Source: Pocillopora damicornis
Taxonomy: Eukaryota
Direction: 5' to 3'
NCBI RefSeq assembly: GCF_003704095.1
Contig: NW_020846461.1
Span: 186,001 to 250,000 of the forward strand
DNA: 64,000 bases
The position numbers were made by a program, and so were the translations under genes. Below the pieces are notes generated by a model. It had not been told where the DNA came from and did no database searches. It was given only the letters and a program-made list of their open reading frames with translations. The stretch's first letter is position 1; every line of letters begins with the position of its first letter. Positions 34,301-64,000 of this stretch are shown here, piece after piece.

Positions 34301-36021
34301 ATGCGTTTCCGAAACGCTCCGTTTTCGTCTTATTAAAAACGCATCGAATACTTTGCGTCCACATCAGCGTTTTCATAGCGTTTTTGAATATCCACTCTAT
34401 TGATGTACTCGTCAAACTGCGCATGCCTGAGCGAACGACCCTTGGCTTCCCTTTGACTTACTTGTCCGAGTCGTGAGTCGCGAACCGTTTGAGAGAACCA
34501 ATGTTCAACAAAAGGTTGAATGACGCAATATTAAGCTCCAAAAAAGCGATTAAGCAAGGCAAAAACATTAAAAACATATCCATACGCTCATCCGTCTTAT
34601 TTGTTTCGAATTTGAGACGAGAGGCCTGGAAATAAGGTTGCACGACGCTATGGCGTCATCCAACGTCCTTGTTTTCGAAAGGAGGACGTCTCCGTTTTCG
34701 ACTGTCTTTACTAAAACTACCCAGCTGATAAAGCCAAATCATCTTGTAACACCCTCCACCGAAGCAGCACCACAGTTTCTGTAGAAAATTATACCCCTTA
34801 TATTCTCACTGTGTTGTGTTGCCTTAATCTGGAAAGTTCACATCAAACTTGTGCTCTGTTTGAGATAGCGGCTCATATGACCGTGTGACAGACAATCTGA
34901 AGCACAAAAGGTTCAAAATTAGAGAAAACTTTTATATCACAGTCACCCACTGGAAATAGACCGCTCAATACAGGTCGACCACTGAAGACATGTTCCACAG
35001 ATTTGGGGTATTAAAAAAAACGTAAACTGAATCTCGCTCAAAAATACTATTTACTTTGAATCTGGGAGAGAATTGATTAATTGATAGATTATTGCTAGTT
35101 TTATTAGAGTGATCCCGCTTTCAATAACCGTTCAATACAATTGGAGGACGATAGAAACAGGCTATTGGGACCTAGTAAAGGGTGACCAGGACCGCTAAAT
35201 AGAGGTGACCGTTTAGTACAGGTTCGACTGTAGAAACACGTACAGATGTGAACCTTACGCCAGTAGAAGGGCGTAAAAGATAATCACGGAAACATCGAAT
35301 TTAAGAGCGTATGAACAGGGAACTAAGAATTTTCTTTCTTAGTATAAACTACGCAACAATTCATACCTAAACTACACAACTAATGTCCGGCGAATCGTGA
35401 CAATTTAAGACAGAGCGAATACATTTGTTTTGAGCAACAGTTTGACCTTAAACTAATTAGAAAAAAACAAGATAAGCATGAATTATTTTTAACAGGTACC
35501 GCGTGTGTTAACGATAATAATATTTGTGCGTGACCTCAGTGATTCAGAATCAAAGTAATGGGTATCTATGGGCCATTTTTTTGCTACTTAAAAAAGAAAA
35601 AAAAAACACTATCCACTCATGTTTAAGCAGTTCTCTGACTCGCCTCAAATATAAGAGACAGAACGTGATTTTATCGTTTAGGTCAGATAACTGTGGCTGG
35701 TACCGGGAGGTTAATTTGCCAACTTGACCAACGAGAAAATTCGGCTTGGATTTTTTATTTTTCGTATGTGGAATTGCTCGGGTGTACGGTGATAAAATGC
35801 CGTCAACAGACGCTTTCATGGAAACTGCGAATATATATCATGGTTCATCTTGGAATTCTGTCAAAGATTTTCTACAATATTTCTCCTCGTTAGGTTACAG
35901 AACGACAGTGATATTCGTCTTGTAGCAACTAACGAACGTTATACTCCGTTAAAACAAACAAACAAGGGAAACTCTTTGAACGAAAACTGTCGATCATTTG
36001 CCGGCTAAACAAAATTAAGTT

Positions 36022-37385
36022 ATGCCATGGCCACGATGTGGATTAGGCTGGCTTTGCATCTTACTAGTTATCTGTAGTGTTGTCACAGTTCTCTCATCGT
36101 ACTGCGTGGCTCTTTCTCATGGACATATTTATCCCTTTCTGCCGGCGATTAGCGAAACTGGCGTCTTATTTCCGGAGAAATATGTCTTTAGAGAGTTAAC
36201 AAATTTAACTGCGTTTTTGTTCATCTCCAATGCGTTTGTCCGTTTTATGCAGTACAAACTTGTGGCTGAGCAGTGTCGAGAGGAGCATGTAAAACTGCGA
36301 CGTCTCAACAAACTAGCTTTTGTGGTCGCCATCTTGGCAGGTGTCGGAATGACCTTCGTGGCTAACTTTGAAATAGAAAAGGTATGGCTAACACAGTTAT
36401 TATATTAGTCTTAAAACCTTGCAATTTCCTTCTGATATTGTTTCCGATCTCTAAAGCGGATATATTCATATGTTATAAGTTAGTGAGTGGCGTTTGAGAT
36501 TCATGACACCAGAAACTCGCAGATCGTGATACGAATGTTAGATAAAGCGACCGGTCATTATTTATCGCCGATATGGCGGGGGCGGCCTCTCTCCTCTGTC
36601 CCCTTTCCCTCCCCCGGTGATAAATAATGATTGGTCTTTGAGTGAAATGCAAGCAACTTCAAGCTTATATTAACTCTTGAAACTCAGACTTTTTCTGTCT
36701 CTGAAGCTGACGAGAAATAGAGGAGTCCCATAGTTCAAACCAGAGACGTCCTCTGGGCGGGAACCTTTTTGTCTTACCCCAGGTGTTATCGTACCCCGAA
36801 ATTTCGAATCTCGGTTGGCGGGGGGAAGGGAAGACATACTGTTGGGGAGGTGCCGTAAAAGAAATCACCCCAGGGTGTTAAGTGATGAGGATAATTTAGT
36901 CATTTTTTAGAGTAAGATATCATGGTTGACTAAAACTTAGATCGAAGAAAAAGCACTTTTGCTTTTACACTATTCAGGACTGGTCCATTCACGACATCGG
37001 TGCGATGACAGCCTTTTTCAGCGGTCTTCTTTACTGCTGGTTACAATGCGCAATGTCATATAAGCTACGCGACCACGGTGTCATCAACAGCTCAGCAGTG
37101 TGTCACTCCAGAGTCACGGTCTCTCTCCTCATAACCTTTTGCGTGGCGATATTTGGCGCGTGCCAGACCAAGGCCAATTGGGAATGGGACCAAGCTCGGC
37201 CTCGTTATCATTTCTTAGCCAAACTCAAATGGAGCCCTGAAGATCCGGGATATTTTTACCACGTGGTATCTAATGTTGCAGAATGGAGCATGTGTGGAGG
37301 AATGCTTCTGTTTATGTTGACGTTTGCGCACGAGTTCCAGCAAATAGAGATAACATCTGATATTTCATCTACTGATTACTGGTGA
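36022..37385 (+). CDS. DRAM/TMEM150 (Frag1/DRAM/Sfk1) family membrane protein
   Basis: Exons 36022-36381 and 36978-37385. HIYPFLPAISETG..PE, VANFE, IHDIGA, AEW and multiple TM helices. Confidence 0.88.
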
Positions 37386-38845: not shown

Positions 38846-41800
38846 TCAGGATGACATTTCTAATTTGTACAAATCACTTCTTTTTTGCTGCTGAACAGGA
38901 ATCTGAGCTCTAATTTCTTCAAGATAGTTAACATCTGCAAAACAAAATGGGAAGACTTTAAATGAATTTTTGGAAATCAAACTTTTTCAATTTTATAGCA
39001 ATAATTCTACAACAAGAATAATACAAAATCAGAAGATCTAGTCTTTGTATCTGTGATATTTTTGTATTTCTACAACCATCTTTACTTATGCCATTACAAA
39101 TTCAATTTATTTTTTGTTCTTTGACTTGTGTAATCAACTCCTTAACAAATAAAATCTACAAGAGAGCTGTAAAGACCATGTGTAAAAACAACCATACCTA
39201 TATCTGAATATAAGATTTGCTCTGTATGGTCTGCTTTGGCAATCACTTCACCCCTAAGAAAAACCATCCACAATGCATCATCATTTTATCAATAAAAATC
39301 AAAGTGACAAAGCATGAACCAATTATAATAAATGATGGTTGATCCATGCAGTTAAAAAAGGAAATTTGATTAAGTAAGGAATGACAACTGACTATCAAAG
39401 AAACAGAAAAACAAGAACTATCCTAATTGATTTCCAGTATTCTCAGATGATCAGAATTATCTCTGCTTCTGTTTCCTAAAGGAGGAAAAATCTCGGAGAA
39501 AGAGGAAAAAAAAAATGGGCAAACACAAAGACACCCAAAATACTCAACACTATCTAGGAAATCAATGACAAAAAAGTCATAATAATCACAACACAATTTC
39601 TGTTCTCATCCAACTGCATCTTTCTTTGGCTGGTGATAAACCACAAGCTTACAAATGACCTTTTCACCATTACAATCCTTACCCTTATAATCAAGAGCTT
39701 TGGTAGTTGGTACTCGATTTCCTTTATTCTTGCGACTATAATAAATGATTCAGGGGTGATATTGTAAGGGGAATTTAGATGCTAGTCACTCTTAGGGGTC
39801 TACAGGTTCATAAATTTTTACCATGGATTGACAACTGTACTGTGGCCCCAGGCAACATATGTTGCTTTTTCATCTCTGGCTGGAGACACAGCTGCTACAT
39901 ACAGCTGAAAAAGAAGGAGACAACTTGAAATTCATAATTTGTGTTTCTTTTGTTCAATGTATAATACTATGTATTGCTAAGATTAGTAACTGAACCAGGG
40001 TGAGTTCAATTCACAAATATTGGGTGATTAATTTTTCTGACCTGATTATCCAGCGCCCTGTGAATGAAAACAGAGACTGTTAAGTTTTCAGAACATTCTA
40101 CTTCAGAATTCAAGCACCAACAGTGGAAGCTGACCTGGTATCCTATTATGGTAAGGGCAAATACCTAAGTTAATTTCAAAATGGTGTTATGTTAAAATCT
40201 TAACACATTTGAAGATAAATTTAAGCAGTTTAGTCAGAACTACATTTTATGATGTTTTAGTTCATATGGCAGAGATGAAAATTACATGCTTTCTTGAACA
40301 CTCTTTTCTTTTAACCCTTTAACTCCCAGAAGTGTTTAACATGTAACTTCCCCCTGTAATATCCATAAATTATCCAGCAAACAGCTGTTGTCTTGATCTA
40401 CCCATAGTGGTACCCGAGGTACCAGCAGTGGCATGTGTTTAATGCAAAATCAACAGATTCCCCATGGGTAAACGACCGGAAATTATGGTAACACCAAATT
40501 CTTGTTACTAATTTGCAAGGAAATGTGTTGCAGCTAGAGGGGAGAATTATCAACTAGATCTTGGGAGTGAAAGGGTTAAATCTACAACTATACACTATAA
40601 TCTGTGAAAAACTTACCTTGCCCTAATGAGTGGTTCCCAATGAGCTGGTCCTGTGGTCATGTTAAATGCTCCAGGATAAAATAGCAGTTTACACCCTAAC
40701 AAATTGAAGCAATTTTTGGTAATGAGTGCATGTTTTTTAATAAACTTATTAAAATGCATAAAAAAATTTTGCAAAATTCAACAACAGATCTTATTGAACC
40801 AATTCAACCAAGGTACTGCAAGTTTCTCATTGGCACCCCTTAGTATTCATAATGATAAAAACACTATTATGAAAAAAGATGATAATTGCAAGGCTGTTGA
40901 CAAGTTTGAAAGTAGGAAGTAAAAAAGATGGCAGACTAGCTGTTTTCAGCTTTGTAATTGATCAACATTCACCTTGCTGTGTGTAAACTTGAGCCATCTC
41001 TGGAAACCTGATGTCATAACAGATTCCAATTCCTATTTTACAGAGAGCTGCCAAAAAAATAACATGACTTCAGGTAAGATGAATATAGCTTCCACAACCA
41101 CATAAACAATAACATTAAAAAATAATTTCAACAACGGCAGCATTCCCAGTTTAGAGTGATTAATAAAGATAAAAGATTTTAAACCAACATACATGTATCC
41201 ATCATTGTCAGCTGTTTCCCACCACACAAAACTTCTGATTCTTGAAAGCGAATTTTTCCTGGAACATCAATATCAAAGAGATGAACCTATGAAAAATATG
41301 TGATACCTGTTCAGAAAAATTCTTTATAAAGAAAAAAATAACAAACTGGATTCAAGTGATATCAGGGAGATTGACATTGTACTCTTTTCCAACAAAAAAA
41401 TTTGAAATTTGAGAAGGAGATGGTGCTAAGCAAAACAGAATTTGGAAACCCAACACTGCCCACATAGATTGATAAAAATACAGATTGGAACAAAGCATGT
41501 AAAAGTATAGATATTCAATGCTCCTCAAATTTTCTTGTTTCCCCAACTCTAGGGTCAAAATCTGAGAATTAAAATCTCAATATCAAAAATCTGAGGTCAT
41601 TTATTAGGAAAATCGAAATGGCTTGGTGTGAGTTAAAAACAACTGCTATAAATGGTTAACCAACTTCTCAATCTTACAACAACTTGGGGCTGCATTAGTG
41701 TGCTAACCTTTCTGTGTTTGGCAAGCATGGCACCATCAGGTCCAAAAGAAGTTGAAGTATTGTACAGCTTCCCATCAGAATCACTTTCAGGGATAGACCC

Positions 41801-43094
41801 TCCTATGATGTAACAACCTGTCTCCTTAGCAACAGATGAGAGCATGTTTGTGGATTCCCCTGGAATTTGCTCAGCATAATTGGCAAAATACTGAGTGCCA
41901 TAAGGTGAATTGAAACATTCCTGATGGAGTCGGATTATTTTGAAGTTAAATTTAAGAAAATAATAAAAAGAATAATTCCTTAACTAACCTTAGAAGGTGA
42001 CAAATGAATAATGGGGATAACTTTCTATAGAAAATGTGGTGCTGTGTTGGCAAGGGATAATGCGCGATAATTTGGTGTTTTCGACCTAGGAGGGCTAACA
42101 ATTGAAGCTACACTTAAGAAAATCTTTACAGTGGTCAATTTACATTATTAACTCAGTTGACAAAACCAATTTTCTTCTATAAGGGTGACACAGAAGGTGC
42201 TTATGAATACTGGAATCTCAAATTGGTGAGATTTAAAATATCATGTAGAGATTTAGTCTATGATTGCCTACTATTTCCAAGGAAAATTATACCACTATGA
42301 GTGACTAGCATCTAATTTCTCCACACAATATCACCCCTGGATCACACAGAAAGGTCAAGAGAATTAAGGAAATGTCACTAACTAAAGAAGCTCTTGATTG
42401 TTGCACAAATTCTCCTTGTCAGCACCTTAGGAAATGTATGGAGAACAGTATGGAGAATATGCATACTGATGTTAGATTAAAGGTTAATACTCAATGCTTA
42501 AAAATTGATTCCAAAAATTGGTCTCTGCAATGTGTAAATAAATTAATCACATATAAGACTGTGATTGAAATGATGATCATGTTTACTTAATATAGGGATT
42601 CAGTGTATTGTCTCTAAAACAAAGAAGAGAATGTGTCTTGAGGTATTTTGTCCGAGCCTTGCACTTCAGAGTCCCCCCTCCCCTTCCAAAACCGTTCCCC
42701 TTTAAAAGGGGTAGGGTTGTTAATGTAGGAGTTCCCCCCAGTCACTCATCCCATCAAAGGATCACTGAAAACATCCCATTTGACTCCGAAACACCACCAT
42801 AATATGAGTTCCTATTCGATTACATGAATCTCTCATAACACTTTGGTTAACAATTTCATGGTGGAAATTTCTCCAAAAGGTATATATTACCGGCAGTGCG
42901 ACAATCTTCGCTCCGTTAGAGACTGCCTCTTTGATCTTGTCTTTAGCACGCAGCAAATTCTGAGCCTTGTTTGCAGTCACTGCAAGCTGAATCAGCGCGA
43001 TACGGAATTCTGAAAAAGTCATATATTAAAGGATGAAAAACTGAAAAATATTCCATTTAACGAAAAGGAAATTTTACTTACTGGAGGCCGACAT
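38846..43094 (-). CDS. NIT2: Omega-amidase NIT2 (nitrilase superfamily)
   Basis: Ten exons: 43094-43082, 43009-42891, 41920-41708, 41286-41193, 41047-40973, 40695-40617, 40057-40042, 39904-39822, 39253-39198, 38934-38846. Triad motifs [24 protein letters not shown] and GICYDIRF; also [15 protein letters not shown]. Confidence 0.95.
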
Positions 43095-43271
43095 GTTCCT
43101 TCAGGTGAGTTTTACCGTATTTGGTATTATTTGGCACGTGACTAGTGCCTTGAAAGAGCGCGCGAAATTTGCGTTCACTCATCAGCATTGCTTTGCATAA
43201 TTATGGAGGCTGTGAAGTTGTGATTTGTGAAAACGAGACATTTCGAGCGTTGATCTTATTCTTATGGTAGG
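43095..43271. promoter_or_regulatory. Bidirectional promoter NIT2/CHK1 with E2F-like site and E-box
   Basis: 177 bp between the two ATGs. CACGTGAC at 43135-43142 and GCGCGAAA at 43160-43167. Confidence 0.65.
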
Positions 43272-46200
43272 ATGACACCTTTTGTCGAAGGATGGGATTT
43301 TGTAGAGACGCTGGGTGAAGGTGCTTATGGCGAGTAAGTGTCGCGAATCCTGAATTTGTTGTTATTGTGAATGATATAGATGAATGACTACTTGTCTTCG
43401 ATTCTTCAATGTTCTACATTTAGAGTAAAACTAGCAGTGAACAGAGAAACGGAGCAGGCGATTGCTGTGAAAATTATCGATGTAGAGAAAGCTGCTGATT
43501 GCTACGATAATGTCAGGAAAGAGGTGAGTGGGGTTTATCGAAATTGAGACAATTGATGTAAGGGATCAGAGAGAAAATCGCTGCAGTAGTAACCTCTGTA
43601 GAAGCACGTGCATTAAAATATATATCATTAACAAATTGACTTATTGTGTCGACAGATTTGTATTCATCGCATGCTCCAAGATGTTCACGTTATTCGGTTT
43701 TACGGACAAAGAACTGAAGGGAAGAAACAGTATCTGTTTCTGGAGTGCGCCGGCGGTGGAGAATTATTTGACAGAATAGGTTAGCTTAATAAGATCATGT
43801 AAATTACAAAATGTGATTTGATTTTTGCTTGCTAACATGTTCTTCACCGATGTGGGGTAATCTTTTCCTTTAAGAGCTTCTCCTTCTCCAGTGCAATTGT
43901 CAAAATAAGCACATGCAATCATGTATAGCTGTAGGCATGAGAATATTTAGAGAGAGTATAAGGTAGAGGGAGTGGCACGGTAAGGTTGGGGGGGGGGGAG
44001 AGGAGCAAGAGGGCTCTGCCTCTCCCTTTTTGAGATTTCAAATTTTTTCCTTTTTAATGCAGAAGATTTTTAGCAGATTTTAGTGTTTTGTTGGTACAGA
44101 GTGAGGTTTTGATTTCTTTCCATCTGGTCTCTTTCTTAATTTTCTGGATTTTCTCCCTGGTAGACTTCTCAGTTATTTAGAAACAACAGCTTACATTGAA
44201 GTTAAACTGTCAAATGTCATATGGAAAATCTCCCTAAATGGATATCAGGATCTTGAAATTGGCCTTTCTCTGGGACAGACATGTAAAGGCTGTTTTGATC
44301 ATGTCTGTCTCACTGAGTTGACTTGATTCACGTACTGTAACATCAAAAAATTGAATACATCAAAAGTCCTTCAGAATTTATGCAAGAATGAGTCCTGCCT
44401 TAAATGTAAAGTGGAGGGGCCAAGTAAATGTGTTCTCTCTTCTGGTAGTGTTAGTAAAAAAAAACTAACCAACACGTACTTGATCAGATACAGTGTGAGT
44501 AACAAGATCTCCATTTTTTCCTCCATAGAACCTGATGTTGGAATGCCTCTTTCACAAGCTCATCGCTACTTCAGGCAGCTTATTGAGGGCGTGGTATGAT
44601 GGTGTTCTATGTTAGATATCTTGTACTGTTAGTACCAAGTTAAGGATTATACGCATGGAATTCTTAGACGTTGTGAATGACTAAGTATTGTCTTTCTTTA
44701 ATCTTAAGTCTAAGGCATATCGGTATAAAGAAAAAGGGCTAAGTCTCCATCTGGTATGGAGTACACTGATGTTAAGGTGTGATGGGTTAAGTTATTACCA
44801 GACTTTTGAGATGTTTTCTTTCTCTGCATGTACATACAGGAGTATCTTCACAAGCAAGGTGTCACACACAGAGACATAAAGCCTGAGAACCTTCTGTTGG
44901 ATGCTGATGGTAAGAGAAAGTCAAACAATTGTTCAAATTATACCAAATTTCAAACATATTGCTATACTAAATGATTCACCTTATCTGCCTGTTTTCTGTG
45001 TTATAATAGATAATTTAAAGATCACTGATTTTGGCTTGTCAACGGTATTCTGACACAAAGGAAAGGAACGTCTACTAGGAAAATGTTGTGGGACACCTCC
45101 CTATGTTGCTCCTGAGGTAGGAATAACACTTAAAGCTTTTGACTAATCTTCATTTCTCATTACATGTAATCAAACTGTGGCCCTGGTAGTTTCTGCCCTG
45201 AGATCAGTAGGGTGTTGTCGTCTGGGTCTTTGTGGGATTATTGTGCTGGGTTCAATCTTTTTAAAATTTAATTTTAGGATTACGAACATTTTGTCTGAAA
45301 TCATATATGGTTGTAGATAAATCTAGAGTGCTCACGCATTCTTAGATAAATTTCATGTTGTGCAAGTCCAAAAGGGACTAAACATTGCACAGACAGGAGC
45401 AAAGAAGATTGGTAAACACACTCAACTTTCACAGTGACTGAGTGATTGACCAAGTCTACTCAGGGGTAAAAATTGATTCTTTCAAATAGTTCAGAAAATT
45501 GTGAAGAACAGGGCAACCTGTAATGAATTAGCATTCCATCCAGATGGAGTGATCATATACATGTACTTATGTACATGTGTACTGTTCTTCCATGTCACAA
45601 GAATTGGGACAAAGTCAACAGTAATCTGGGTTACTTAAGTTAAGGCGTGTCTCTTTGTAGGTTCTTTTAAAGGGTGAATATAGAGCTGAGCCTGCAGATA
45701 TTTGGTCCTGTGGTATTGTTCTTGTCGCAATGTTGGCAGGAGGTAAGTAGTCACTTCTTATTTTTTAGCTGATAAAATTAATTTTCAATTATTTAAAAAT
45801 ATTGTCTAGAGGAAAGGGAATAAACCTCAGGATAGTTGATTGGACCACTTAACAAACACTTACTGGAAGTTAAGAGCCTTCTTTTGTAATATGAAAATAT
45901 AATAATACGATTAATAATAATATTACTATTAACTATGAATTCCTTAGCCCTTGAACTACCAGAAGTGACTAACATGAAATAACTCCCTGTAATATCTGTA
46001 CACCACCTAGCAAACAGGTTATTATGATGCTCAAATGTATTAGGTAGAAGTTTTCATCCTGATCTAACACCAAATTCTCATAACTAATATACAAGGTAAT
46101 GTATAACAGCTAGAGGGGAGAATTAACAATCAGATCTTGAGAGTTTAAGGGTTCAGGAGGGTGAGGTGAATGGAAGGGTTCACACGCCTGGACCCCTCCT

Positions 46201-49200
46201 CAGCTTCACTCTGTGTAATATATCAGCTTCATGCCTTGTGCCTCAACACTTCATGCTGCCTTCACTGTAGGTGTAAATCAATGTCCTTAACATAATATTC
46301 GAGGGTTTCTATAACTTTTAACATAAGTCATGGCTGATGGTGTGATAGGCACGTGTGCTTAAAAGGTGCTGTAAGGCAAAATCCAACTTGTAAGCTACAC
46401 AGGCAGGGGTAAGAGGTTTTATAGGCAGCAGTAGACCACCAGTAACAAGTTTTCATGAAACCCTATAAATAATTCTGTAAGAAGTCAGTATCTTTGTGAA
46501 TGTATTTGAATTTTTTATCAAAAATAGAGCTTCCATGGGATGAACCAACAAAATCAAACAAAGAGTATAATGACTGGCTCAATGGCAGAGTAAACAGGAC
46601 ACCTTGGTGCAAAATGGACCCACAGTCATTAGGTTTGTTCATTTTTATTATGAAGTTACAAATTCAAGTGTGGAAGTAAAAGTTATGCATAAACACATGT
46701 GTGGAAAATGTAGTGGTGGAGGTTAACTCTTTAACTTCTGTGAATGATCAACACAGAATTTCTCCTTACAGTATCAATACAATATCAACCGGATAACTGA
46801 TGATAATAAAGAAAAATATAAATTTGGGAATAATTAGTTGATCCAATACTAAATTCTCTGAACTAATATTATACGAATTGTATGGTTGACAGTAAGGAGA
46901 ATTTCAAATGTGATCTGGGAATTAAAGGGTCAAGAGCATGGGTGAAAGTAACTGAATGGTAATAAGACAGCTAGAACTGAAGTCATAATCAGAGATGAGG
47001 GTTGTTCTTAAGTTGGATTTTAAACATTTGTTCTTGTTAATTGTGTAGTCATTTGTTCTGTGATGTGATAAGCTGTTTGGTTAAAGTATTATTGGTAATA
47101 AATATGTGATTGGTCAATCTCTATTCACTGATGAAGTACAGTAAGTGTTTCTTTTCAGTTCCTTGTTATTGATCATGTTAGTCCCACACTTGTGACAAGA
47201 CAAAGAACATCTTTCTCTATTTCTTTATTGAGCTTAAAACTTACTCTTACTCTCTCTTATTCTATTTACAAGACATGACATTATTGAAATTGCTGATCCT
47301 AGCAGTATGCTGGACGCATTTCTTATTGGAACTTTGTAATGGGCTTAGAGCATGGGAGCATGCAATCTGAAGGTCTGAGGTTCAATTCCTCGTGGAGACT
47401 CAGAATTTTTCTTTGTCCCACGCTTGTGACAAGACGAAAAAACATCTTTGTTTAAGTTATCCTTTGTAGGTTGGTGTCCTCTGTTGACATCTGCATGTAT
47501 ACCTTTCTTTTACCTGTAGATTTCTTGTCAGAAATTCTTGTGGAAAATGCTAAAAGGAGGTTAACAATACCACAAATAAAGAAAGAACGATGGTTTTCTA
47601 GGTAAGGCTGTCTGTATGATTTGCTTTTATGCTTTAATCCTTTAATCCCTTCAAGTGACCAGCATCAAATTTCTCCTTACAATATCACCTTTGAATCAAA
47701 CATTAAGGATATGAGAAAATGGGAAATGATCCCAAATAAAGATGCTCTCTATTATCAAACAAATTCTCCCTGTTGGTACCATAGGAAATGTTAAGGTAAC
47801 AGTATGGAGAACATGCATATTGATGTTGGGGAGCAAAGGGTTAAATTCCTCAAGTTTAAATGAACATCTTGCCAAATGTAAAATGAATTTATTGAGTCCT
47901 TTTTCAATTTATTTTACCTCTAGATCAATAAGTACATCAAGAAGTCCAAGAGATGGTTAGTGAATGTCCTTAAAATTTTTAATATTTCTGACCAGATTTA
48001 GCAACATCTCACAAGTGAAATTGCTTTGAGTTAGCAAGAGGTTAGAGTTATCGAGGGTTTGAAATACTGAGGGTAAGATTGTTGAAAATGTATGTCGCAA
48101 ATTGAGGGGAAATATTTTTTGGCTCGTGTAAGCGCAAGGTTCTAGTTATCAAGGGTTTGAGTTATTGGAATTCAAATGTGTAAATCTTTCTGTTTTTAAG
48201 GGTGTTCTCCAGGGAACACACCCACAGGTACAGGAACATTTAAGAGAAGATGTACTGAAGCAGATGTTTCTTCTCCACAACGACCAAAAAGATACAAGTG
48301 AGTACTGTGCTGTGACTAGCCATATCATTATATTCCTACTTTGTCCTTGGTAAATATTTTTCCAGACAGATGTGCAGCATTTATGCTAAAAGCAATGATT
48401 AGCATGGCAAATTTTTGATCAAGAAGTTTGGATGTGAGCTCTCATCTGGATACTCATAATGTGCATGTGTTTTAGGCAAAACACTTTCTGTCATTTGCAA
48501 AACTTCTTTGCACTAAGTTGTTCAAAGTGTAATCAATACTGATGCAGATCTCACTGCCATGGCAAGATACATGTGTAGTTTTCTGGACAGCTTTACTATT
48601 AGCTTAGGGCAACCAAGCCCACGAGTATAAAAAGGTTCTAACAACTGTCACTGAAAATAAACTCTGTGTCATAAAATTTGTGGTTTCTCACATTTCCAAA
48701 ATCCAGATAAGCTTCTTTTGTGAGTGTTCTGTGAACTAGGCTTGCAAGACTTTCCCTTGCATTCTTTAGGGATCACATATCTGCCTCTCAGCCTGAGCCC
48801 CGCAGACTGGACAGTGGTATTGGGAGTGGTGCATTGGAGCTTGTTGATGACGAGGCAACAGTGAATGGATTGTGTTTCTCACAGCCTGTCCATCTGGATC
48901 ACATGTTACTAAGCACACAGATGCAGTCTACTCCTGGAACATCACAGGTAAAGATAAAATGTTTTTTACATATTACATTTGTCTAATCTGATGTTTTGCA
49001 GTAGCAGCCAATGCAAACACCTCTTTAATTAGAGACCTTGAACAAGTACCTTCACATGAATAATAACACTATATGGTTAAAAGTTGCCCTGCGGGCACAA
49101 ATCAGTCAAGGCAAAAGTTATATTTTTAACAACCAGATGACAATAATGATTTTAATGAGTACACATTTCTTTACTGCTCCCTTTTAGAGTCCATTCCAGA

Positions 49201-50174
49201 GTCTGGTTAAGCGTATGACTCGTTTCCACACAAAGAGGAGTGCAGACAAGACACTTCACAAGTTAAAGGAAGTCTTGGACAAACTTAAATATAGCTTTAC
49301 TGTGAATTCTCCTCGTCAGGTAAAGAGATACACCTTAACCCTTTACACCCTAACATCAGCATGCATATTCTCCATACTGTTCTCCATACAATTCTTGAGG
49401 TGCTAACAGAAGAATTTTTTCAACAATCAAGAGGTTCTTTAGTCAGTGATCATTTCCTTTAATTTCTTGACCTTGATGTGTGATTCAGGGCTGATATTGT
49501 AGGGAGAAATTAGATGCTGGGTGATGTTAGGAATCAAAGGGTTTGATCATCTTGCAAGATAGTGTAAGAAAGAATAATGTTAGACCAGCAAAGCACAATT
49601 TTCTCATGGCCCTTGTTTTTGCTAGAGAGCAAAATGAAATGTTTTACTGATGAAGACTCTTGTATAGTAAATTTCTTATCTTTACCCATACAGTAGGAAA
49701 AATGTGTTCCTAGGAAAAAATCAACTTAAACAATTTCCTCTTCTTTAATACACTGTAGGTCACAATATTGACAACTGACAGACGACAAAATAAACTGAGT
49801 GTTAAAGTAAACCTCATTGATATGCATCCCTCTCTGTTGGTAGACTTCAGATTATCCAAGGTAAATAAATTTGATATTGTAGAATTAAGAAAAATGAATA
49901 CAATGAGAACTGTTTCAAAGATTTGTAAAAATTTTGGTTCTATGTGGCAAATGGTAAGAGGATGGTACACTATACTATCAGCTAATTTGAACTCCTGCTA
50001 ACTCCAACTTATGTTTCCATTGGGAGTTTGAGTTATGAGGGGTTCTACTGTTACAGTACTAAAACATTCTGTGGCTAACTCTGGACATTTTTTTCCTCTC
50101 AGGGTGATGGTTTAGATTTCAAGCGTCACTTCCTGAAGATTAAGGCTCAACTAAAGGACATTATTGACAGGTAG
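43272..50174 (+). CDS. CHEK1: Serine/threonine kinase Chk1; one in-frame TGA at 45051-45053 in this assembly
   Basis: 15 exons: 43272-43333, 43424-43523, 43656-43779, 44529-44593, 44840-44909, 45010-45116, 45661-45742, 46528-46632, 47520-47601, 47924-47955, 48201-48297, 48770-48947, 49188-49319, 49759-49860, 50103-50174. [42 protein letters not shown] cluster (SQPEP, FSQP) and KA1 domain ([24 protein letters not shown]). Confidence 0.95.
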
Positions 50175-51591
50175 CAGGTGAAATTACTGTGGATGCCACA
50201 AGACAATGGGTGCATTTAAGGACTCTCTTGTGCCAAAACACATCCCAGCATGTACTGTTCCCTGTGAACTACTAAGAGCCCTCATTGTTGTTGTTCCTGT
50301 TGTTTTTTTTTAGCTTAATTAAACAAATATATTTAAAAAGATAACTAAGGGATTTATACAAAAAACAAATGAAAGAGTTAGAGATATACCTGTTCCTGTT
50401 CAAAAGAAATTTTCTATAACTTACATAAGACCATGTTTTGTACATGTATTTAATCACATGCAAAGATGGAAGCATTTAAATTGTATTCATATGGGTTTGG
50501 GGTAAGGTTGCTTAAGTCTAAATAAAGTATTTTAATGGGAAAGGAAGTTGTCTTTTTTTGTGGACTTTTTATTTTGAAATCCCAATGAAATAGTTTTAAA
50601 TAAAATTTAAAGAGAAAGTCAGAGAAGTGTCCACAAATATATAAAAACTTCACCTTAATTTCAAGAGCAATAGAGTCATTGCAGCATAGATATTTGGCTA
50701 CGAATTCTGTTGGTTGGATTTTCACTAAATCATACTACTCTGATTACCACTTCAATTCCAAGTCTGTCTCTAGTGAATGCTGGCTCGAAGTGAAATTGCA
50801 TGTACATTTGTTGATGCTGCTTTTGTTGTTGTTTTTTTATTGTGTGCGTGTGATAGGAAAAAAAGTTTACAGACGTATCTTCAAGGCACAACACAGTCTG
50901 GGAATTAAATCTTAGAGCAAAAAAATTTCAATCAGCAGTTAACCCTCTACACCCCAACATCAGAATCTATACTCTCCATACTGTTCTGTATACATTTCTT
51001 AAGGTGCTGACAAGGAGAATTTGATCTGCTTTAGTTGGCGATCATTTTCTCTCTTCTCATGACTTTAATGTTTGATTCAGGGGAGAAACCAAAAGGAGAA
51101 ATTAAATGTTAGTCACTCTTGAGGCTTAAAATAAGGGTTTATTCCATAGGAGCACTAAACAATTTGGTGACATCATGAGCTTTTTAATCTTTAAAATAAT
51201 TGTGTCTGATTGTCACATGCAATTATCATGTTAATGTACAAAATTTTTACAGAAATAACTATAAAAAAGCTTTTTAAATCTGCATACAGATCGGCATTCT
51301 TTCTTTTAATTTTCAAGCATAACAAATAACTATTCCATTATTATTATGAATTGATTATCAACCCTTTCACTCCCAAGATCTCATTAGTAATTCTCATTGC
51401 TGTCTGCCATATAGTTCTTGTGATGTTAATTGGAAAATTTGGTAATGAATTTACTAATAATCTCTTATTGATGCTACTCTTTATTCTCATCACTAGTCTG
51501 CTTGATATTGCACTTATATTGTAAAGAAAAAATTCTCTCTTGGTCATTCAAGGGAGTTAAAAGGTTCATAACACTAAAATCAAAGATAAGT

Positions 51592-54500
51592 TCAATGCTG
51601 CTCAATGTCATAAAAAAACCTCACAAGGTGGTAACGAATAATAAAGGCAATAACACTTCCACAAATCTGCAAAGAAAAGAACTCAAAATTAGCTGGCTGC
51701 ATGGATCTCTGTATATTTGTGATGTGAATTATATCACAGAGGTTATAATCTACACACACCATAAACATGTGCAAAAATGTTTCTGATTGATTGTTCCCCA
51801 TGAAGGAAACACAATATACCTGACTTGTTTAACAAAACGTTAAGGCTTGGAAGATTTTTCTCTATTGCAATTTAATAAATCTGAGGGTATTTCTTTTATT
51901 TTACATCAATGAGGTCAGGCACAATTGCTCAAAAAGAAAACAGGAAAAAAAAGCATGAAAAAGAACTCTGGAAAAGTTGCCAAGTTTCTCTATCTAGTTG
52001 TTCAAACCTGTAAATGTTCCCCCAAGAAGTGTCCTCAACATGTTTTCTTGTTTCTAAAACTCTTTGCTAATATTTGAAGAGGACTTATGATATGATATCC
52101 CTTTGTGATAATTGTACAGCAACGTAGAAAAAAAATAACAATAGAAACTTGTTATAGAAAATGACTGGCAGGTACAACTAGGGCTTAACCTTGAAGCAAG
52201 CAGGTTGGAAAGAGCCACATGGCTCTACAAGAAGGGAACTAAACCAGAAAAAAGAGACAGAGAAAGAGAGTTAGGCTTGTAATGAAAATGTTTACTGACT
52301 GAGTAAACTTGAGTGGAACAAGCAAAATTAATATTCGGCTCTCAGTCCTAATGTATGGACTTCAGTGCCCTTGGTTCACACTTCGTGGCCTTGAGCAAAA
52401 CTGTAAAGAGGTCCTTCATAGATACTGAGAGAGGTTTTTAATTAATAATTTTACCTGTATTCCCATGATTATTATTGTCAATGTTCTTTCATGTAAGGGT
52501 CCCAGCACTTTGATAACAAAGTTTATAAGTGTCAAGTTGTTAACACGCGTAGATTTTTTGTCTTCACCAACACCTTCCTCCACTGTAACTAATCTTAGAA
52601 GGCTGAACACTGACAGTATAAGTTTCCCTAGCGGATGAAGGTCAGACATTTTAAACACACTGTAACTCATTCCTAGCAAACCAGTGTCTGGGTTAAACCT
52701 ATAAAAGAAAAAAGTTAATCAATAATAAATGAGTGATACAATGTAAATGAAGTAAAATTTTATAATCATCAACTTTGGCACATTTCAGACGCTAAACTTT
52801 TCACTTGCTAAACTTAATTAGAATTTCACATGATCCATATCAACCCTTATTCCCAGAGGTGATTAGCTTATAACTTCTCATTACCATTCCAATACATTAT
52901 CTTCCAAAGAAGTTATGAGAACTGAGATGCTAATGTCAATTGGAGAGTGTTTTCTTGATTTAAAATAGATTTCTCCTGTCCTATTTAAGTGTAAACATGT
53001 AACAGTCAATTGGGAGGGTCATTAATTGGATCTTAGGAGTTTTAAAGCCCTGGATTCAGCTATAGTCTAACTACTTGTTACATTTTCAAACTCACCTTGG
53101 TAGTCGATGTCTTGGACATGGTATGAAACGAAACAATTGAGGAATTGAGTAAACAAAGTTGATAACTTGTGGAATAAAGAACAACAACATTGTTTTACTG
53201 AAGTGTCCTAAAATGCCAACTACTGCAAATGTCATTCCCGCAAAATAGCAGAATGTGTCTCCAACAAATACAGAGGATGGGTACCTAAAATGGAATATTG
53301 GAAAAATATAAGAAAGATGTGTTGTGGTTCACTTTTATTCTTGATTTAAAGTTTTACTAGTTTATTTCTGGGAAAGGTAGTAAGGATGACTTGAACTTGT
53401 AACTTAAAAACACTTAACATGTCAAATGAAAAATGATTTAAAAAAAATACAATATATGCATTACAGTAATTTATAATTCAGAAGACTATGGACAAGGGAC
53501 AAATTCTGGTGTCACAGAGAAAGCCAATAAGATGTGGAAAAACTGACCTGTGTGGAGTATTGCCAATTAGTTTGTGGTTTGAAGGTGATTTTGCATGCCT
53601 TGGTCTCCATTAGGATTGGTCATAATACAATGTAACACATAGTGTGTATAATTCAGGTGTTCATGGTTTTTGGAGTTGGACAGTAATGGTGACAGAAAGT
53701 GAAATTCTCCCAGTAATTCTCCTGACTATCAGCTATAAGATTCTTATTATATTAATTCAGAGAATTTGATATTGGGTCAACTAATAATCACCAAATTGCT
53801 ATTTTTCTTCATTCTCATTGATGATAGGATGATAGGTGCTGTATTGATATTTTAACCCTTTAACTCCCATGAGTGACCAAGACAGAATTTCTCCTTATAA
53901 TATCAATGAAATGTAAAATTGTTTCCGTGTTTACATAGCCTGATGTAAACACATGGGAGGTTGGGAGAACACGAGATAAGTGTAGGAAACCACGACGCGA
54001 AGCGAAGTGGTTTCCAGCCTATCAAGTGTTCTCCCAACCTCCCACATGTTTACATCAGGCTATGTAAACACGGAAACCATTTTACATTTCTTTTATAAAA
54101 TAACTAATGAAAGATGAACGAAAACCATGTTTACATACGCTCAGTAAAATGGTTTTATGGCCAATCAGAGTGCGCACACTATTTGAATTATTTTATAATT
54201 CAATATCAAGCATAGAAGTGATGAGAATAAAGAAAAATATTAATTTGGGGATCATTAGTTGATCCAATACCACTCTCCAAATTGACATCCTAAGAATTCT
54301 ATGGTAGACAGTGAGTAGAATTACTAATAAGATTTTGGGAGTTAGAGGATTAAGGAGGAATTCTGTCTTGCACACTCATGGGAGTGAAAGGGTTAAATTC
54401 AGCAGTTCTCACTTAATTCAGACAACAACTCACCAGTTATGATAAAGTAATGCTGAACATGTGGCAATGAAAGGCATCATGAAATATGCTGAGAACAAAT

Positions 54501-56654
54501 GAGCCTGCCAACAACAAGTTCCTTGGAGCTCAATGAAATTAAACATCAAAATGGAGACTGCAATGATGAGCGACTGTCCTGCCTCAACACCATTGATACC
54601 AGCCAAGATATTGATTGCATTTGTGCAGAATATTGCCAACATTCCCATATAAACATAGTATAATATTCCTGAAGAATAAAATGGAAGCATGTGTTTATTC
54701 TTTTAAATAGTTTTTATTTCTTTTTATTCTTGAGTTACATAATGCTTTGTACAATAACTGAGCTCTCACAGGTCACAGAAATCACAAAAGTATTAAACCA
54801 ACTGACTTAGGAGGCCATAATTCAAAACTGTGCTGCATAACTATATAACCTTACCTAGATCTACATCAAAGCCAAAAATGAATCTGATGGGTTTTGGTAC
54901 AATGATTGTTGTAACACCAATATTGACACAGTAGACCATGAGGAGGGGAAGAGATGCCATTGCCGGCAGAAGAAGCCTGTCTCGCCACCTGAGATCAAGA
55001 ACATCATCCGCAAATCCCAGGAAGATCATACAACAGATGGACAGAAGGCCAGTGATGAACATGACAAACTATTTAAGGAACAGTAATGTTGGTTAAAATA
55101 ATCCACACATAGGTAAAGAACCTTGTAAGATGAGGAACCCCAAAAATTCAATTCCATTTTCTTGTAGACTGTGATTAAATCTCAAACAGCACCAGACAAT
55201 TGGGAAAGTTGACAGTCTTTACTTGAAATTTGATTTTCATATCTTCACTGTTGTGAGGATCAAGAAGCAAGTTTTAGGACAAATTTTGACCAAACAATTT
55301 TCTGTAATTCTCAGTAACAGAACAATGGTAATAAAGTCAAACAGCTTGACACATGGTTCCTCTTAATTGCATAACCTGCTCAAAGACATGTTTTATAGAG
55401 TATACAATGTTTTTATAAGCAGGAGAAGCTACTTATACCCTCACATTTATGAGATAAACTCACCTCATGATGTGGAAAATCATAATCACCTTTCTCAAAC
55501 CAAATAGAGAGAAAAGGGATTGGGATGAATAAAAACATCGTAATAAGAAATACTGCTCCACTAACAACTCCTAAACCCTCTGCACTGTGGAATTAAAACA
55601 TACATGTACATTAATTACTAATAAACATTTGGGTACAGTTGTATAAAGGGTGAATAATTCTATCCAATGGATAAATCGTTATCCAGCATATAAATGTTAA
55701 TAAAACATACTGAGCTATCCACTCGATATGGATTTATCCAGTGGATTGTGTTATCCACCTTTTAAACAACCATGTCCTGATCTATAGGAAAAATATTCAC
55801 AACAGTTTTTGGCAACATTATTGATGAAGTAAATGGTTGGAACACTGAAGCAACAGTTGATCATGTAATCCAACTTTGCAGGTGAAATGGTCCTGAAAGG
55901 AACTGTTTTTGGTAGTAGTGACTGCCAATGCTGCCAATAACAGACCTTTTCTGGATTACTTTCACCATAGTAACAAAGAATTATCACCATCTTAATTCCA
56001 AGATATCAATCACTTATCAAGAGCCAGACGCAGTGAATACTGAAGAGTACCCATAAGCACCTCTGAATACTAAAAGGGGGTTAAAGACGTAGAATTATTA
56101 AAGGAAGAATAATTTGGACTAAAGTGTTTTGATTTTTGACAAAGATCAACACAGCTGTATTACCAAAAAATGTATTAATTTATTGATGAACAGAAATCTA
56201 CAAAAAAAGGTTTTACAGCAAGTATAGATTACAATAAGGCTATGATAATTAAGTAAAAACTTCGGAGTCATCTTAAAAAAACTGTTCCACTCTCTAATCA
56301 CGAGGATAGACAGTGATTTAATAACAAGTGCTCGTATTGTTTGAATTGGAGTACGACTAATTAATTGCATGGCGAATCACCATGCAACATGAGTAAGCCA
56401 TAGGAATACAGCATCTGGAATTATCCTCTTGTGATAACCTCTAGATCTCCATTACTTATCAGCCCAAGCCCCGAAATAAGATCTCTCAAGACTTACACTT
56501 TCTCCTTGTTGTCTTTCTTGTTGAGGTCTTTCCCGCATAGCCCAGCTTTAAGGAACAGCGATTTCATACCTGAAATTAACTTCAACGCTACAAAAAATGT
56601 CACACAGGACATGACAGAATTAACAGTTAACGGATATATCATTCTGTAGATCAT
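51592..56654 (-). CDS. DPAGT1: UDP-GlcNAc:dolichyl-phosphate GlcNAc-1-phosphotransferase
   Basis: Exons 56654-56497, 55584-55464, 55068-54855, 54668-54434, 53284-53096, 52698-52455, 51666-51592. [52 protein letters not shown] and NNLTLIN. Confidence 0.96.
53908..54198. mobile_element. Long-hairpin element nested inside a piggyBac MITE
   Basis: Arms 53908-53993 and 54007-54090 are near-perfect inverted repeats around GACGCGAAGCGAA. The tail contains GGCCAATCAG. Confidence 0.8.
55630..55775. repeat. Dispersed element with internal ATCCAGTGGAT-like units (second copy 62297-62420)
   Basis: Repeated TATCCA..GGATA units; ends GTTGTT(C/T)AAA.G.TGGATAA. Confidence 0.6.
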
Positions 56655-57171
56655 TTTCGATTATCTTTTCCAGATTGTCGCGTCTTGAAAGTCCTAATTA
56701 AACGCTGGGCAATCTAAAATCTCAAAGCTTTTGTACCTTTGAGGATAACCGCTGACCGATGCCTGATCGAAGCGGCGTTGATTAGACGTTAGATATGCAA
56801 TCGCGCGAGACCCGCGAAATGGACGCGAAATGTCATAATATGTATCTAAGCAACAAAATGATTGATAGCTTATTTTTCTAGCATGTGATTGGTTAAAAAA
56901 CTATTACGCAAATTTGCAGTTCAAAAATTTTCGCGGATAAGTGAGGATTTTTGTTCCGAGAAAACCTAGAGGATACTGAGGGGAAACCTTTTTTTTTAAT
57001 CTGTTATGGATATGAAATAACGCGATAGTTTCATGATTACTTTCAATTCGAATTAGGAAAGGAATTCGTCGGATTTGAGCCGTTTTTTCCGAGCGCTTGC
57101 AACTTACAGAACTGTTAGAGCGTCCAAGAAAAAGCACGGCTGAACCCTGAAAGTGGGTGAACACTAGAACA

Positions 57172-60100
57172 ATGCCGAGTGTCAAGGATTCAAAAGGTTC
57201 GAAGAAAAGTGCCGGTGGTGCATCCCAGGAGCATTCTGGTGGGTCAAAAGCTGATAGAAACAGGCGAAGTTCTCTGAAAGGTAGTACCGGTACTTCGCTT
57301 TTCGCTCATCCCTTGACTGGCGAAACTGTTAAAGAAAGGCAGGTACGAATCTAAACAAATAAATCTTAAAACAGAATGAAAAAACTACTTACTTAGAGCG
57401 TTTTGTGGAAAAAATTAATAGAAGGGAATCTTTTTTTTTTTACTCTTTTGCTTCAATTTCAGTTTACCCCCATTCGTCATTTGCCAACTTTTAAGATCAA
57501 AGAAATTATAAATCTTGTTAACCTGCTTGTGAAGTTTTTTGTAAGCCGTGTGAACCATTTTCTACAGCAAAAAGTGAGAGAAAACCGTGAAGCAAGGAAG
57601 CGAATGATAACGGACGAGTACAGATTTCTCATGGGAATCGTTGGAGGCTACGTAGATCTGGATGTGTCTGCAGTTGAAGAATTCGTACTTGATTCAGAAG
57701 AGGTAAGTTTAACTCTTTCCGCAAGATTTTACCCTTAATCCTGTGATTCCTTTCGCAATAAAATGAGAGGAGAGGTAAAAGTACTCTATTTCAGGTATCT
57801 TAATGTTGTTTCCATGGTTTTCATGAAAACGCTGACGCTTGAAAGCTTAAGTTGGAATAATGAAAGGTTTTAACAGTACATGCGTAAGCTTCTTTGTGTT
57901 GTTGCCATGGCAACACAACCAATTGAAACGATGTCACAGATATCCTTCTTTATGTAGATAAATGTCGATCAAAAGTTGTTTTTCTTTTTTTGTCAGTATA
58001 CATTGGCAGGGACTCATTACTTAGAGCTTCCAAACCAATTGCACCCTTCAGTCAACCCTGTCCCATATCTTTTTAGTTTTAGAACTGAGATATGAGATGG
58101 GTTCTTTAATTTCCTGTGAAAACACGCTGACTTTCCGTGCTTTTTGCCATTATTGATATACTTCCATGTGACCTGCATGTGACATAAACAATAGATGACC
58201 ACAGCTCTCTTATGATTTGCTATTATGTAAACACATGCGAAAAACCCTGTGGAAGGTGCCTCATAAAAAGATATGGGACAGGGTTGACGCAGAAGGTAAG
58301 TATGGAAGTTGAAAGCTCTGGGTAATGGGCTCCTGATGTTGGTAAAAAAAGGTATGTACGTGTGATCAACTTCAAAAGAGTGATTTTTCACTCTCTGGGG
58401 TTGAATCTACCTCTGCCCTCTTGAATGTTTTAGTGGTCCTTAATAATTGTCAGGTTCAAACAACATGTTCACAACATGAGGTTTAGTGAAATGATAGTTA
58501 AGTGGAGTAAGGTTTAAGAGCAGTGATGGTCACAAATACGTGCATATACAGGCTCATGTGGAAGGTGGTATCTTTTTTCAAATTAAGCTGGAATCTTTGT
58601 GTTCTCCAGCAGATTTGGTAACAGCCATTCCTCAACAATCCTGATCTTATTTTTAGTGGTTTTTTTCAATTGTAACTTCCCACACCTCTTCCTTCCCCCT
58701 TTTTTCTTTTGTCAATATATTCAGTGTTGATGGTTCCTGTAATGGAGACTAAAATGACCCAAAACTCAAAAAGCTGTGGACAATGAGAATTTGGACAGAA
58801 ACACAATTGGGGCAATACTTTGACTGAAATTTAACTTCTTCCTAAGTTAGGATTACTAACTTGAGAAACAAACCAACAACTTCATGACTAAAGAAGGATT
58901 TGGTCTCTTTTTCTCTAGGCAGTTTACTTGATAAACAGCTTTTTAAAGCCAAAGGGAAGAAGATCATTAATGTTTTTCTATCAGGAGGTTGATCATGAGG
59001 GAAGAAGTTGTAAGTATTCTCATGGACCTCCACTAGAAATTATAAAGCAATTTAATGGAATAAGGAGATGAAATTCTGAGATGATTTATTATAAGGTTAT
59101 TTTGTTACACCAAGTGGTGCTATTAACCGTTTTAATCTTACAGTTTGACTTTGTTTTTCAAGACACAGAGGTACGAGCTCGTACTGTAAAGTCTGGTAAA
59201 GTAGCAGTGCTGCTAGTAACTAGTGGTCTTGAAGAGAAACTGACTGGGACCCTAGTATACTGTGTGAAGGCTGATGCAAATAAAGAGCTTAAGATGAGAA
59301 ACATTGCTGATGTAAGTACTCTCCTGGAGCTTGTGAACAAATTCTTTTTTTGTTCCAGTGTATAGTATATCCAATAAAGCAGGGGTTTGATTTAATAAAT
59401 AAATAAATAAGAGGGCTAAATTTGAGCCAAAGATTCCAGTATTTTTAAATTCAGCCAAATTTCAGATACAAAACAGTATGGGGTCTCAGCTTCTTTGCTG
59501 ACTGGTGATGTTTATGTGATTAGAGTAATCATAAAACAGAGTTTTATAGTGTTTTCTGGCTTTGCAGGGTTAAAATAGTTTTTTTTTTAAGGAATTAAAT
59601 GTTATTTTCAATGACCATTGGGTCAATGTCAGAGTTGAAATGTGGATGAAAACAAACAGTGTATGAAAGAGTGTTCATGGTTTAAATTCTTGCTTGCTGG
59701 GCCTAGTTTCAGTCAATGCACTGTAGGTCCTCTCATTTCATGGGATGGTGTCAAAATGCATGAATTTTTAAGTATCAGTTTGTCTTCATTACAAACTTAC
59801 AGAAACTGTAGAAACTGTTTCTGGAAATTGTAATTGTGATTTTTTAGGAGGCATGCTTTGGGATGATAAATGCTGGAGAAGCAGGATCCTTTATTCCAGC
59901 CCTAAGAACACATCTCACAAAGATTTATATACCAGCCATTAGAGCCATGTCCAGCTGGGGAGAACTGGAAAAGACACCACAAGGAGTAAAAGCCAGTGCA
60001 CAGTTTGTTGAGTCATTGGATGGCTTTGTTCATTTTATTGATGGTGGGATATTTGAGATGCTTAATGCCAAAATGTAGGCCATGTAACACTTTTCAACAT

Positions 60101-63963: not shown

Positions 63964-64000
63964 GTTTGTGAAACTCTTTCCTTTCTCATTTGATAGATTA

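What the first reader, a model, noticed from the sequence alone, without database searches (positions are those of the whole stretch)
45051..45053. In-frame TGA in the activation segment of an otherwise intact CHK1
Seen in sequence: exon 6 reads [32 protein letters not shown]. All other exons, splice sites, the SQ cluster and the KA1 domain are intact. Established: the position is Arg in human Chk1 (ATVFRYNNRERLL), and Chk1 is essential in mouse. Inference, most to least likely: (i) a CGA>TGA CpG-deamination allele, germline-heterozygous or somatic, in a methylated gene body; (ii) a consensus error; (iii) recoding, since UGA followed by C is a leaky context and Arg, Trp or Cys can be inserted at UGA. 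A checkpoint-null allele in a long-lived clonal animal would be notable either way.
Basis: partly seen in the sequence, partly recalled or inferred. Interest (0 to 1): 0.7.

Follow-up and report, generated by a model that had tools for sequence, protein, structure and literature searches.

The report
Private stop in coral CHK1
This coral genome assembly has a stop codon in the middle of its only CHK1 checkpoint-kinase gene, but all eight public sequencing runs tested read the normal arginine codon, so it is likely a rare one-off mutation in the sequenced colony or a one-letter assembly error, not a species-wide gene loss or recoding.

Summary
The TGA at 45051-45053 is real in the assembly: codon 155 of a 15-exon, 469-codon CHK1 that otherwise equals RefSeq Pocillopora verrucosa Chk1 at 468 of 469 residues. 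It is the only CHK1 in G000. The T is private: 4 of 4 DNA runs and 4 of 4 RNA runs (8 studies, 7 samples, contigs only) read C, giving CGA/Arg; one sample reads C in both DNA and RNA. Of 15 listed close proteins 14 have Arg155, and the 154-residue truncated product is not among about 15 billion proteins. Recoding and editing are refuted as species traits. Left open: a recent heterozygous or somatic CpG C>T allele (about 55%; gene-body CpG o/e 0.19, likelihood ratio 3-16) or a consensus error (about 43%); the colony's raw reads were not available. A deposited 452-residue model skips the stop through a cryptic acceptor and loses the DFG motif, likely an annotation artefact. The scan noted a like case in a bacterial fliW (e1-764023), none for CHK1. 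Ordinary; low interest.

The parts
45051..45053 (+). Premature TGA at codon 155 (R155*); position 45051 is C (CGA, Arg) in every other data set tested
43272..43333 (+). CHK1 coding exon 1 (ATG at 43272)
   Evidence: match to P0017
43424..43523 (+). CHK1 exon 2
43656..43779 (+). CHK1 exon 3 (hinge region)
44529..44593 (+). CHK1 exon 4
44840..44909 (+). CHK1 exon 5 (catalytic HRD loop)
45010..45116 (+). CHK1 exon 6, 107 nt (DFG to APE, activation segment); skipping it would shift the frame
   Evidence: RNA contig 22 of X20 covers 45009-45114 as one piece
45059..45060 (+). Cryptic in-frame AG acceptor 51 nt into exon 6; its use deletes residues 141-157 including DFG, exactly as in deposited model P0018
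45661..45742 (+). CHK1 exon 7
46528..46632 (+). CHK1 exon 8
47520..47601 (+). CHK1 exon 9 (end of kinase domain; Pfam Pkinase covers residues 10-264 of P0017)
47924..47955 (+). CHK1 exon 10
48201..48297 (+). CHK1 exon 11
48770..48947 (+). CHK1 exon 12 (SQ-containing regulatory region; R320 CpG codon polymorphic in other samples)
49188..49319 (+). CHK1 exon 13
49759..49860 (+). CHK1 exon 14
50103..50174 (+). CHK1 last coding exon with the normal terminal TAG (50172-50174); other coral Chk1 proteins end at the same place or one residue later
42801..43800 (.). CpG-rich 5' region (o/e 1.10) between CHK1 and a divergent CN-hydrolase gene, against o/e 0.19 in the CHK1 body

Best explanation
The assembly's single CHK1 carries a stop at codon 155 that no tested run shares, and it is likely a recent C-to-T change at a likely methylated CpG, carried on one chromosome copy (inherited or somatic) of the sequenced colony and captured in the haploid consensus. 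Shown: the stop, the single copy, CGA in 8 of 8 other runs, a CpG-depleted gene body, and identity of the surrounding haplotype to run X1. Inferred: methylation of this CpG, heterozygosity, decay of the mutant mRNA (stop 63 nt before the next junction, 9 junctions downstream), and a null 154-residue product lacking the end of the activation segment, the rest of the C-lobe and the regulatory tail. The other allele would supply normal Chk1. The wider claim, that the T is private and the gene intact in the species, I hold at about 0.97; the confidence below is for allele against error.
For: C in DNA runs X1, X5, X7, X13 (other depth equals all depth: 82.4, 6.3, 5.86, 8.11) and in RNA runs X15, X17, X19, X20 (27.1, 6.18, 2, 23). 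In X1, X5 and X7 it is the only substitution listed over 43600-45900, so the T sits on a common haplotype and is young or technical. CpG o/e is 0.19 in the gene body and 0.91 in 1-38000. Among 46 listed differences in other samples, 3 of 26 transitions hit window CpGs against 0.46 expected (P about 0.011), and two of them hit one Arg codon (R320C, R320H). Only 4 of 203 possible nonsense substitutions in this CDS are CpG transitions, so this class favours mutation over error by about 3- to 16-fold under assumed rates. Gene-body methylation makes coral CpGs hypermutable (PMC4989105, passages). Chk1 heterozygous mice are viable while homozygotes die near implantation (PMC7335382, passages).
Against: No read or contig with the T was seen anywhere (0 of 8 runs; truncated product absent), so the allele is not independently confirmed. 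At an assumed Q50 consensus, 7e-4 nonsense errors are expected in this CDS, against 4e-5 from branch-specific somatic mutation at the published coding rate; the assembly's true error rate is unknown. The assembly differs from X1 and X5 by a roughly 33-nt duplication 1 kb upstream, which may be a local collapse. The CpG multipliers in the likelihood ratio are assumed, and the polymorphism table was cut (97 rows not shown).
Confidence: 0.55

Rival explanations
1. The T is a one-base consensus error of the assembly; the colony is CGA/CGA and its Chk1 is normal.
For: T seen in 0 of 8 runs and in none of the 14 listed close proteins that span the site. It is the only substitution against X1 in 2.3 kb. 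Expected nonsense errors per CDS are 7e-3, 7e-4 and 7e-5 at Q40, Q50, Q60.
Against: The change falls in the rarest and most mutation-like class (CpG transition, 4 of 203 nonsense opportunities). The site is not in a homopolymer or repeat, and the nearest N run in the window ends at 5169.
Confidence: 0.43
2. The colony, or the sampled branch, is homozygous for the stop, for example by loss of heterozygosity, and lives without Chk1.
For: A haploid consensus cannot show zygosity; no alternative haplotig with C exists in G000 (1 match). Loss-of-heterozygosity variants are reported in coral branches (10.1101/2021.07.20.453148, passages).
Against: Chk1 kinase activity is essential in mouse embryos and cells (PMC7335382). 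No second Chk1 exists to compensate. The gene shows no other decay: 468 of 469 residues match P0017. No in-frame splice rescue keeps DFG.
Confidence: 0.015
3. The TGA is fixed and is recoded (readthrough as Arg, Trp, Cys or Sec) or edited U-to-C in the mRNA.
For: TGA is followed by C, and the mRNAs read C.
Against: Genomic DNA of four further studies reads C, and sample S1 reads C in both DNA (X1) and RNA (X15), so no editing is needed. The column holds Arg in 150 and Lys in 22 of 172 homologues with a DFG, never Trp or Cys. Rfam finds no SECIS in 43000-52000 (one unrelated hit at E 0.45). The following C is the conserved His codon.
Confidence: 0.005

Closest known systems
Pocillopora verrucosa serine/threonine-protein kinase Chk1, XP_058956302.1 (P0017)
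   Same: 468 of 469 residues identical; same length and same terminal stop; this exact sequence is recorded on 42 contigs.
   Different: Arg155 where the window has TGA.
Deposited model RMX39752.1 / UniRef100_A0A3M6TEE6 (P0018, 452 aa, labelled CHK1)
   Same: Equals the window's translation except for one deletion.
   Different: Lacks residues 141-157 including DFG, through a cryptic acceptor that steps over the stop; seen on 1 contig and not supported by the four RNA runs, which use the normal acceptor. Likely a gene-finder artefact, and not independent evidence for the T.
Human Chk1 kinase domain (PDB 1ia8 and others)
   Same: Exon 6 aligns without gaps to residues 143-177 (E 4e-11); the stop corresponds to Arg156.
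   Different: No stop; loss of both alleles or of kinase activity is lethal in mouse (PMC7335382, passages).
Private CGA>TGA nonsense variants at methylated CpG in diploid genomes, and premature stops that are consensus errors in draft assemblies (general knowledge)
   Same: Single base, CpG transition, absent from other individuals, no linked decay.
   Different: Nothing distinctive beyond the gene being a checkpoint kinase.

Membership tests
Chk1 orthologue | Best matches are Chk1 proteins over the full length | tested here: met
   468/469 identity to RefSeq Chk1; 24 best of 31 PDB hits for exon 6 are Chk1; 52-65% identity to annotated Chk1 of other animals
Chk1 orthologue | Complete protein kinase domain | tested here: met
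   Pfam Pkinase 10-264 on the Arg form P0017; the stop form ends at residue 154
Chk1 orthologue | C-terminal KA1 domain and ATR-target SQ sites | tested here: inconclusive
   Pfam gave no KA1 match for P0017 at E<=0.001; SQ motifs are visible in exon 12 and the tail is conserved with annotated Chk1; their equivalence to human sites is recalled
Fixed pseudogene / species-level gene loss | Lesion shared by other individuals | tested here: not met
   0 of 8 runs carry T
Fixed pseudogene / species-level gene loss | Further lesions or an intact paralogue | tested here: not met
   No second lesion; no second copy
Programmed stop-codon readthrough | Stop codon fixed and conserved in relatives | tested here: not met
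   CGA in all runs; Arg or Lys in 172 of 172 homologues
Selenoprotein (UGA = Sec) | SECIS element in the 3' UTR and Cys/Sec at the site in homologues | tested here: not met
   No SECIS match; no Cys in the column
U-to-C RNA editing | DNA T with RNA C in the same individual | tested here: not met
   Sample S1: DNA C (X1) and RNA C (X15); the window's own colony could not be tested
Heterozygous CpG nonsense allele | Both C and T in raw reads of the source colony | not testable with these tools
   All 24 listed runs are kept as contigs, which drop rare variants
Heterozygous CpG nonsense allele | CpG context in a CpG-depleted (historically methylated) gene body | tested here: met
   CGA ancestral codon; o/e 0.19; methylation itself not measured

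The most novel reading that the evidence does not exclude
The sequenced coral colony, or the sampled branch after loss of heterozygosity, really lacks functional Chk1 and still grows: a long-lived clonal animal living without the ATR-Chk1 checkpoint kinase. The milder version, a heterozygous null colony (about 0.55), would only offer a natural test of whether half-dose Chk1 raises the somatic mutation rate in corals (interest about 0.25).
Probability: 0.015. Interest if true: 0.75.

Novelty: already known. Interest (0 to 1): 0.12.

Why it matters
Biologically little: CHK1 is intact and spliced normally in every other sample tested. The practical point is annotation. A public 452-residue model labelled CHK1 lacks the DFG motif because it steps around this stop, so studies of coral DNA-damage genes that rely on it would see a false kinase-dead Chk1, and variant calls against this reference will show a spurious fixed difference at 45051. 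Only if the colony's reads confirmed the T would there be a living coral with a checkpoint-null allele, useful for asking how clonal animals carry recessive lethal load.

Tried and rejected
Second CHK1 copy or haplotig: none; DNA and two exon queries each gave 1 match, the window itself, and the full protein's 94 matches are this locus's exons plus other kinases at 58% identity or less over short stretches (91 of 214 candidates scored). Second premature stop: I suspected the terminal TAG at 50172 because the frame stays open 14 more codons that faintly recall the bilaterian tail; other corals end there too and the likeness is not significant (p 0.084 against 20000 random 9-mers). Hinge Cys (ECAGG) as a second lesion: shared by all stony-coral sequences shown. 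Splice rescue: exon 6 is 107 nt, so skipping shifts the frame; the two in-frame cryptic acceptors after the stop both delete DFG. SECIS or other RNA family: none. Metagenome scan for coral CHK1 DNA returned 79 loci, all generic kinases at 23-45% identity, no use. Joints between exons were not visible in table 5 because repeats crowded it; splicing was read from table 8 pieces. Literature: 'Pocillopora' plus 'Chk1' gave 0 papers; two searches gave nothing used. The preprint 10.1101/799643 was seen only as a search listing. Supplements were not read.

Full report
Observation. The window reads TGA at 45051-45053, in frame after DFGLSTVF in the exon 45010-45116. A beam search over AG/GT boundaries against a homologue gave a 15-exon, 1410-nt coding sequence from 43272 to 50174 with canonical splice sites at all 14 introns and two stops: codon 155 and the terminal TAG. 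Exon 6 aligns without gaps to human Chk1 residues 143-177, placing the stop at Arg156.

What the gene is. The translation equals P0017 (RefSeq XP_058956302.1, Pocillopora verrucosa Chk1) at 468 of 469 positions, the only difference being R155*, and differs from the P. meandrina protein P0019 at one further residue. The organism is therefore a Pocillopora coral by protein identity. G000 (234 Mb, 4393 contigs) holds one copy: a 301-nt DNA query and two exon proteins each matched only this locus, and the full protein found only this locus's exons and unrelated kinases (91 of 214 candidates scored). At the stop's column 150 of 172 homologues with a DFG have Arg and 22 have Lys; 16 of the 188 proteins held lacked the DFG stretch (fragments and P0018) and were left out.

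Is the T shared? Of 24 listed runs, 20 hold the gene, from 8 studies, all kept as contigs. I laid 8 of the 20, one per study. Four RNA runs (X15, X17, X19, X20) read C at 45051 with other depth equal to all depth (27.1, 6.18, 2, 23; one contig each; X19 is under depth 5). Four DNA or probable DNA runs (X1, X5, X7, X13) also read C (82.4, 6.3, 5.86, 8.11). X1 and X15 come from the same sample S1, so DNA and RNA of one sample both read C and no editing is needed. In X1, X5 and X7 the T>C at 45051 is the only substitution listed in 43600-45900; X1 covers it with one contig. In the protein collection, 14 of the 15 listed members of the closest cluster (32 members, 17 not listed) have Arg155, standing for 97 contigs; the fifteenth is P0018. 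The exact 154-residue truncated product is not among about 15 billion proteins. Limits: contigs drop rare variants, so heterozygous carriers among these samples cannot be excluded one by one; none of the runs is known to be the source colony, and if the best holder were, that would point to error or heterozygosity but not separate them.

Recoding, editing, fixed loss. All three need the T to be shared, and it is not. Rfam found no SECIS in 43000-52000, and the column never holds Trp or Cys. The C after the TGA is the first base of the His codon conserved in corals. No splice route rescues the allele: exon 6 is 107 nt, and the in-frame cryptic acceptors at 45061 and 45079 delete DFG.

Allele or error. 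For a real allele: the ancestral codon is CGA; CpG o/e is 0.19 in the gene body, 1.10 at the 5' end and 0.91 in the first 38 kb, the pattern of gene-body methylation, which makes coral CpGs hypermutable (PMC4989105, passages seen). Among the 46 non-repeat differences I took (one search hid 97 rows; repeat rows and 45051 itself left out), 3 of 26 transitions hit window CpGs against 0.46 expected (P 0.011), two in codon R320. Only 4 of 203 possible nonsense substitutions in this CDS are CpG transitions, so with assumed CpG multipliers of 3-10 this class favours mutation over error by 2.8- to 16-fold. For an error: nobody else shows the T; a Q50 consensus would give 7e-4 nonsense errors in this CDS and Q60 7e-5, whereas branch-specific somatic mutation at 6e-7 per coding base (10.1101/2021.07.20.453148, passages) gives only 4e-5. 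Inherited recessive load would add to the allele side by an amount I cannot measure. The assembly also lacks a roughly 33-nt duplication at 43966-43998 seen in X1 and X5, either polymorphism or a local collapse. I put allele at 0.55 and error at 0.43; these are judgements on assumed rates, not measurements.

How it would work if real (inferred). Deamination of 5-methylcytosine turns CGA into TGA on one chromosome. The stop lies 63 nt before the next junction with 9 junctions downstream, so the mRNA would likely be degraded (the 50-55 nt rule is recalled). Any product would stop at residue 154 of a kinase domain that runs to 264 and be inactive. The other allele would supply Chk1; in mice heterozygotes for null or kinase-dead alleles are viable and homozygotes die around implantation (PMC7335382, passages). 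Whether Chk1 is essential in corals is untested; 'Pocillopora' with 'Chk1' returned 0 papers.

Annotation artefact. P0018 (RMX39752.1, UniRef100_A0A3M6TEE6; 452 aa) equals the window's translation minus residues 141-157, which is what use of the cryptic acceptor at 45061 gives. It loses DFG and its Pkinase score falls from 229 to 192 bits. The RNA contigs use the normal acceptor (X20 piece 45009-45114; 43 letters from 45051 to the piece end in X15, X17, X20). The model was likely built on DNA bearing this stop and is not independent evidence for it.

Earlier scan notes. Nothing near this place. In this genome, unreviewed notes report a misassembled contig (e1-9573868) and a stop found real in a neuropeptide exon (e1-9809082); a bacterial fliW case ended in the same allele-or-error verdict (e1-764023). 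I tested none of them.

Verdict. Real in the assembly, private to it, not recoding and not gene loss. Already known kind of thing; interest 0.12.

Noticed in passing
window 43966-43998: Runs X1 and X5 carry a roughly 33-nt tandem duplication beside a poly-G tract in CHK1 intron 3 that the assembly lacks; contigs of X7 and X13 break there. Polymorphism or assembly collapse.
   Followed up: no
window 48801-48802: Codon R320 (CGC), four residues after the first SQ motif, is hit on both CpG strands in other samples: R320C (X17; P0020, P0021, P0025) and R320H (X20; P0023).
   Followed up: partly
window 39000-43025 (-): A carbon-nitrogen hydrolase gene (Pfam CN_hydrolase; omega-amidase NIT2-like by recall) lies head to head with CHK1 across a CpG-rich region.
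   Followed up: partly
window 52400-55100 (-) and 57400-64000 (+): A glycosyl transferase family 4 gene (DPAGT1-like by recall) lies tail to tail with CHK1, followed by a divergent dynein heavy chain (Pfam DHC_N1), again with a CpG-rich gap at 55701-57800.
   Followed up: partly
window 38000 boundary: CpG o/e drops sharply from about 0.9 (1-38000) to 0.14-0.23 (38001-64000 outside the two promoters): a block of likely methylated housekeeping genes next to an unmethylated region; a Frag1/DRAM/Sfk1 gene at 36019-37385 sits just outside it.
   Followed up: partly
window 50175-50219: The frame stays open for 14 codons after the terminal TAG, faintly like the tail that bilaterian Chk1 has and coral Chk1 lacks; not significant (p 0.084).
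   Followed up: yes
window 43744-43755 (exon 3): Stony-coral Chk1 has Cys at residue 85 in the ATP-site hinge where Nematostella (P0075) has Tyr; shared by all stony-coral sequences shown, so not a lesion.
   Followed up: partly
window 45917-46163, 46658-47892, 49128-49621: Short, very high-copy repeats in CHK1 introns draw thousands of RNA contigs; similar elements recur in introns at about 40300-40600 and 42300-42500.
   Followed up: no
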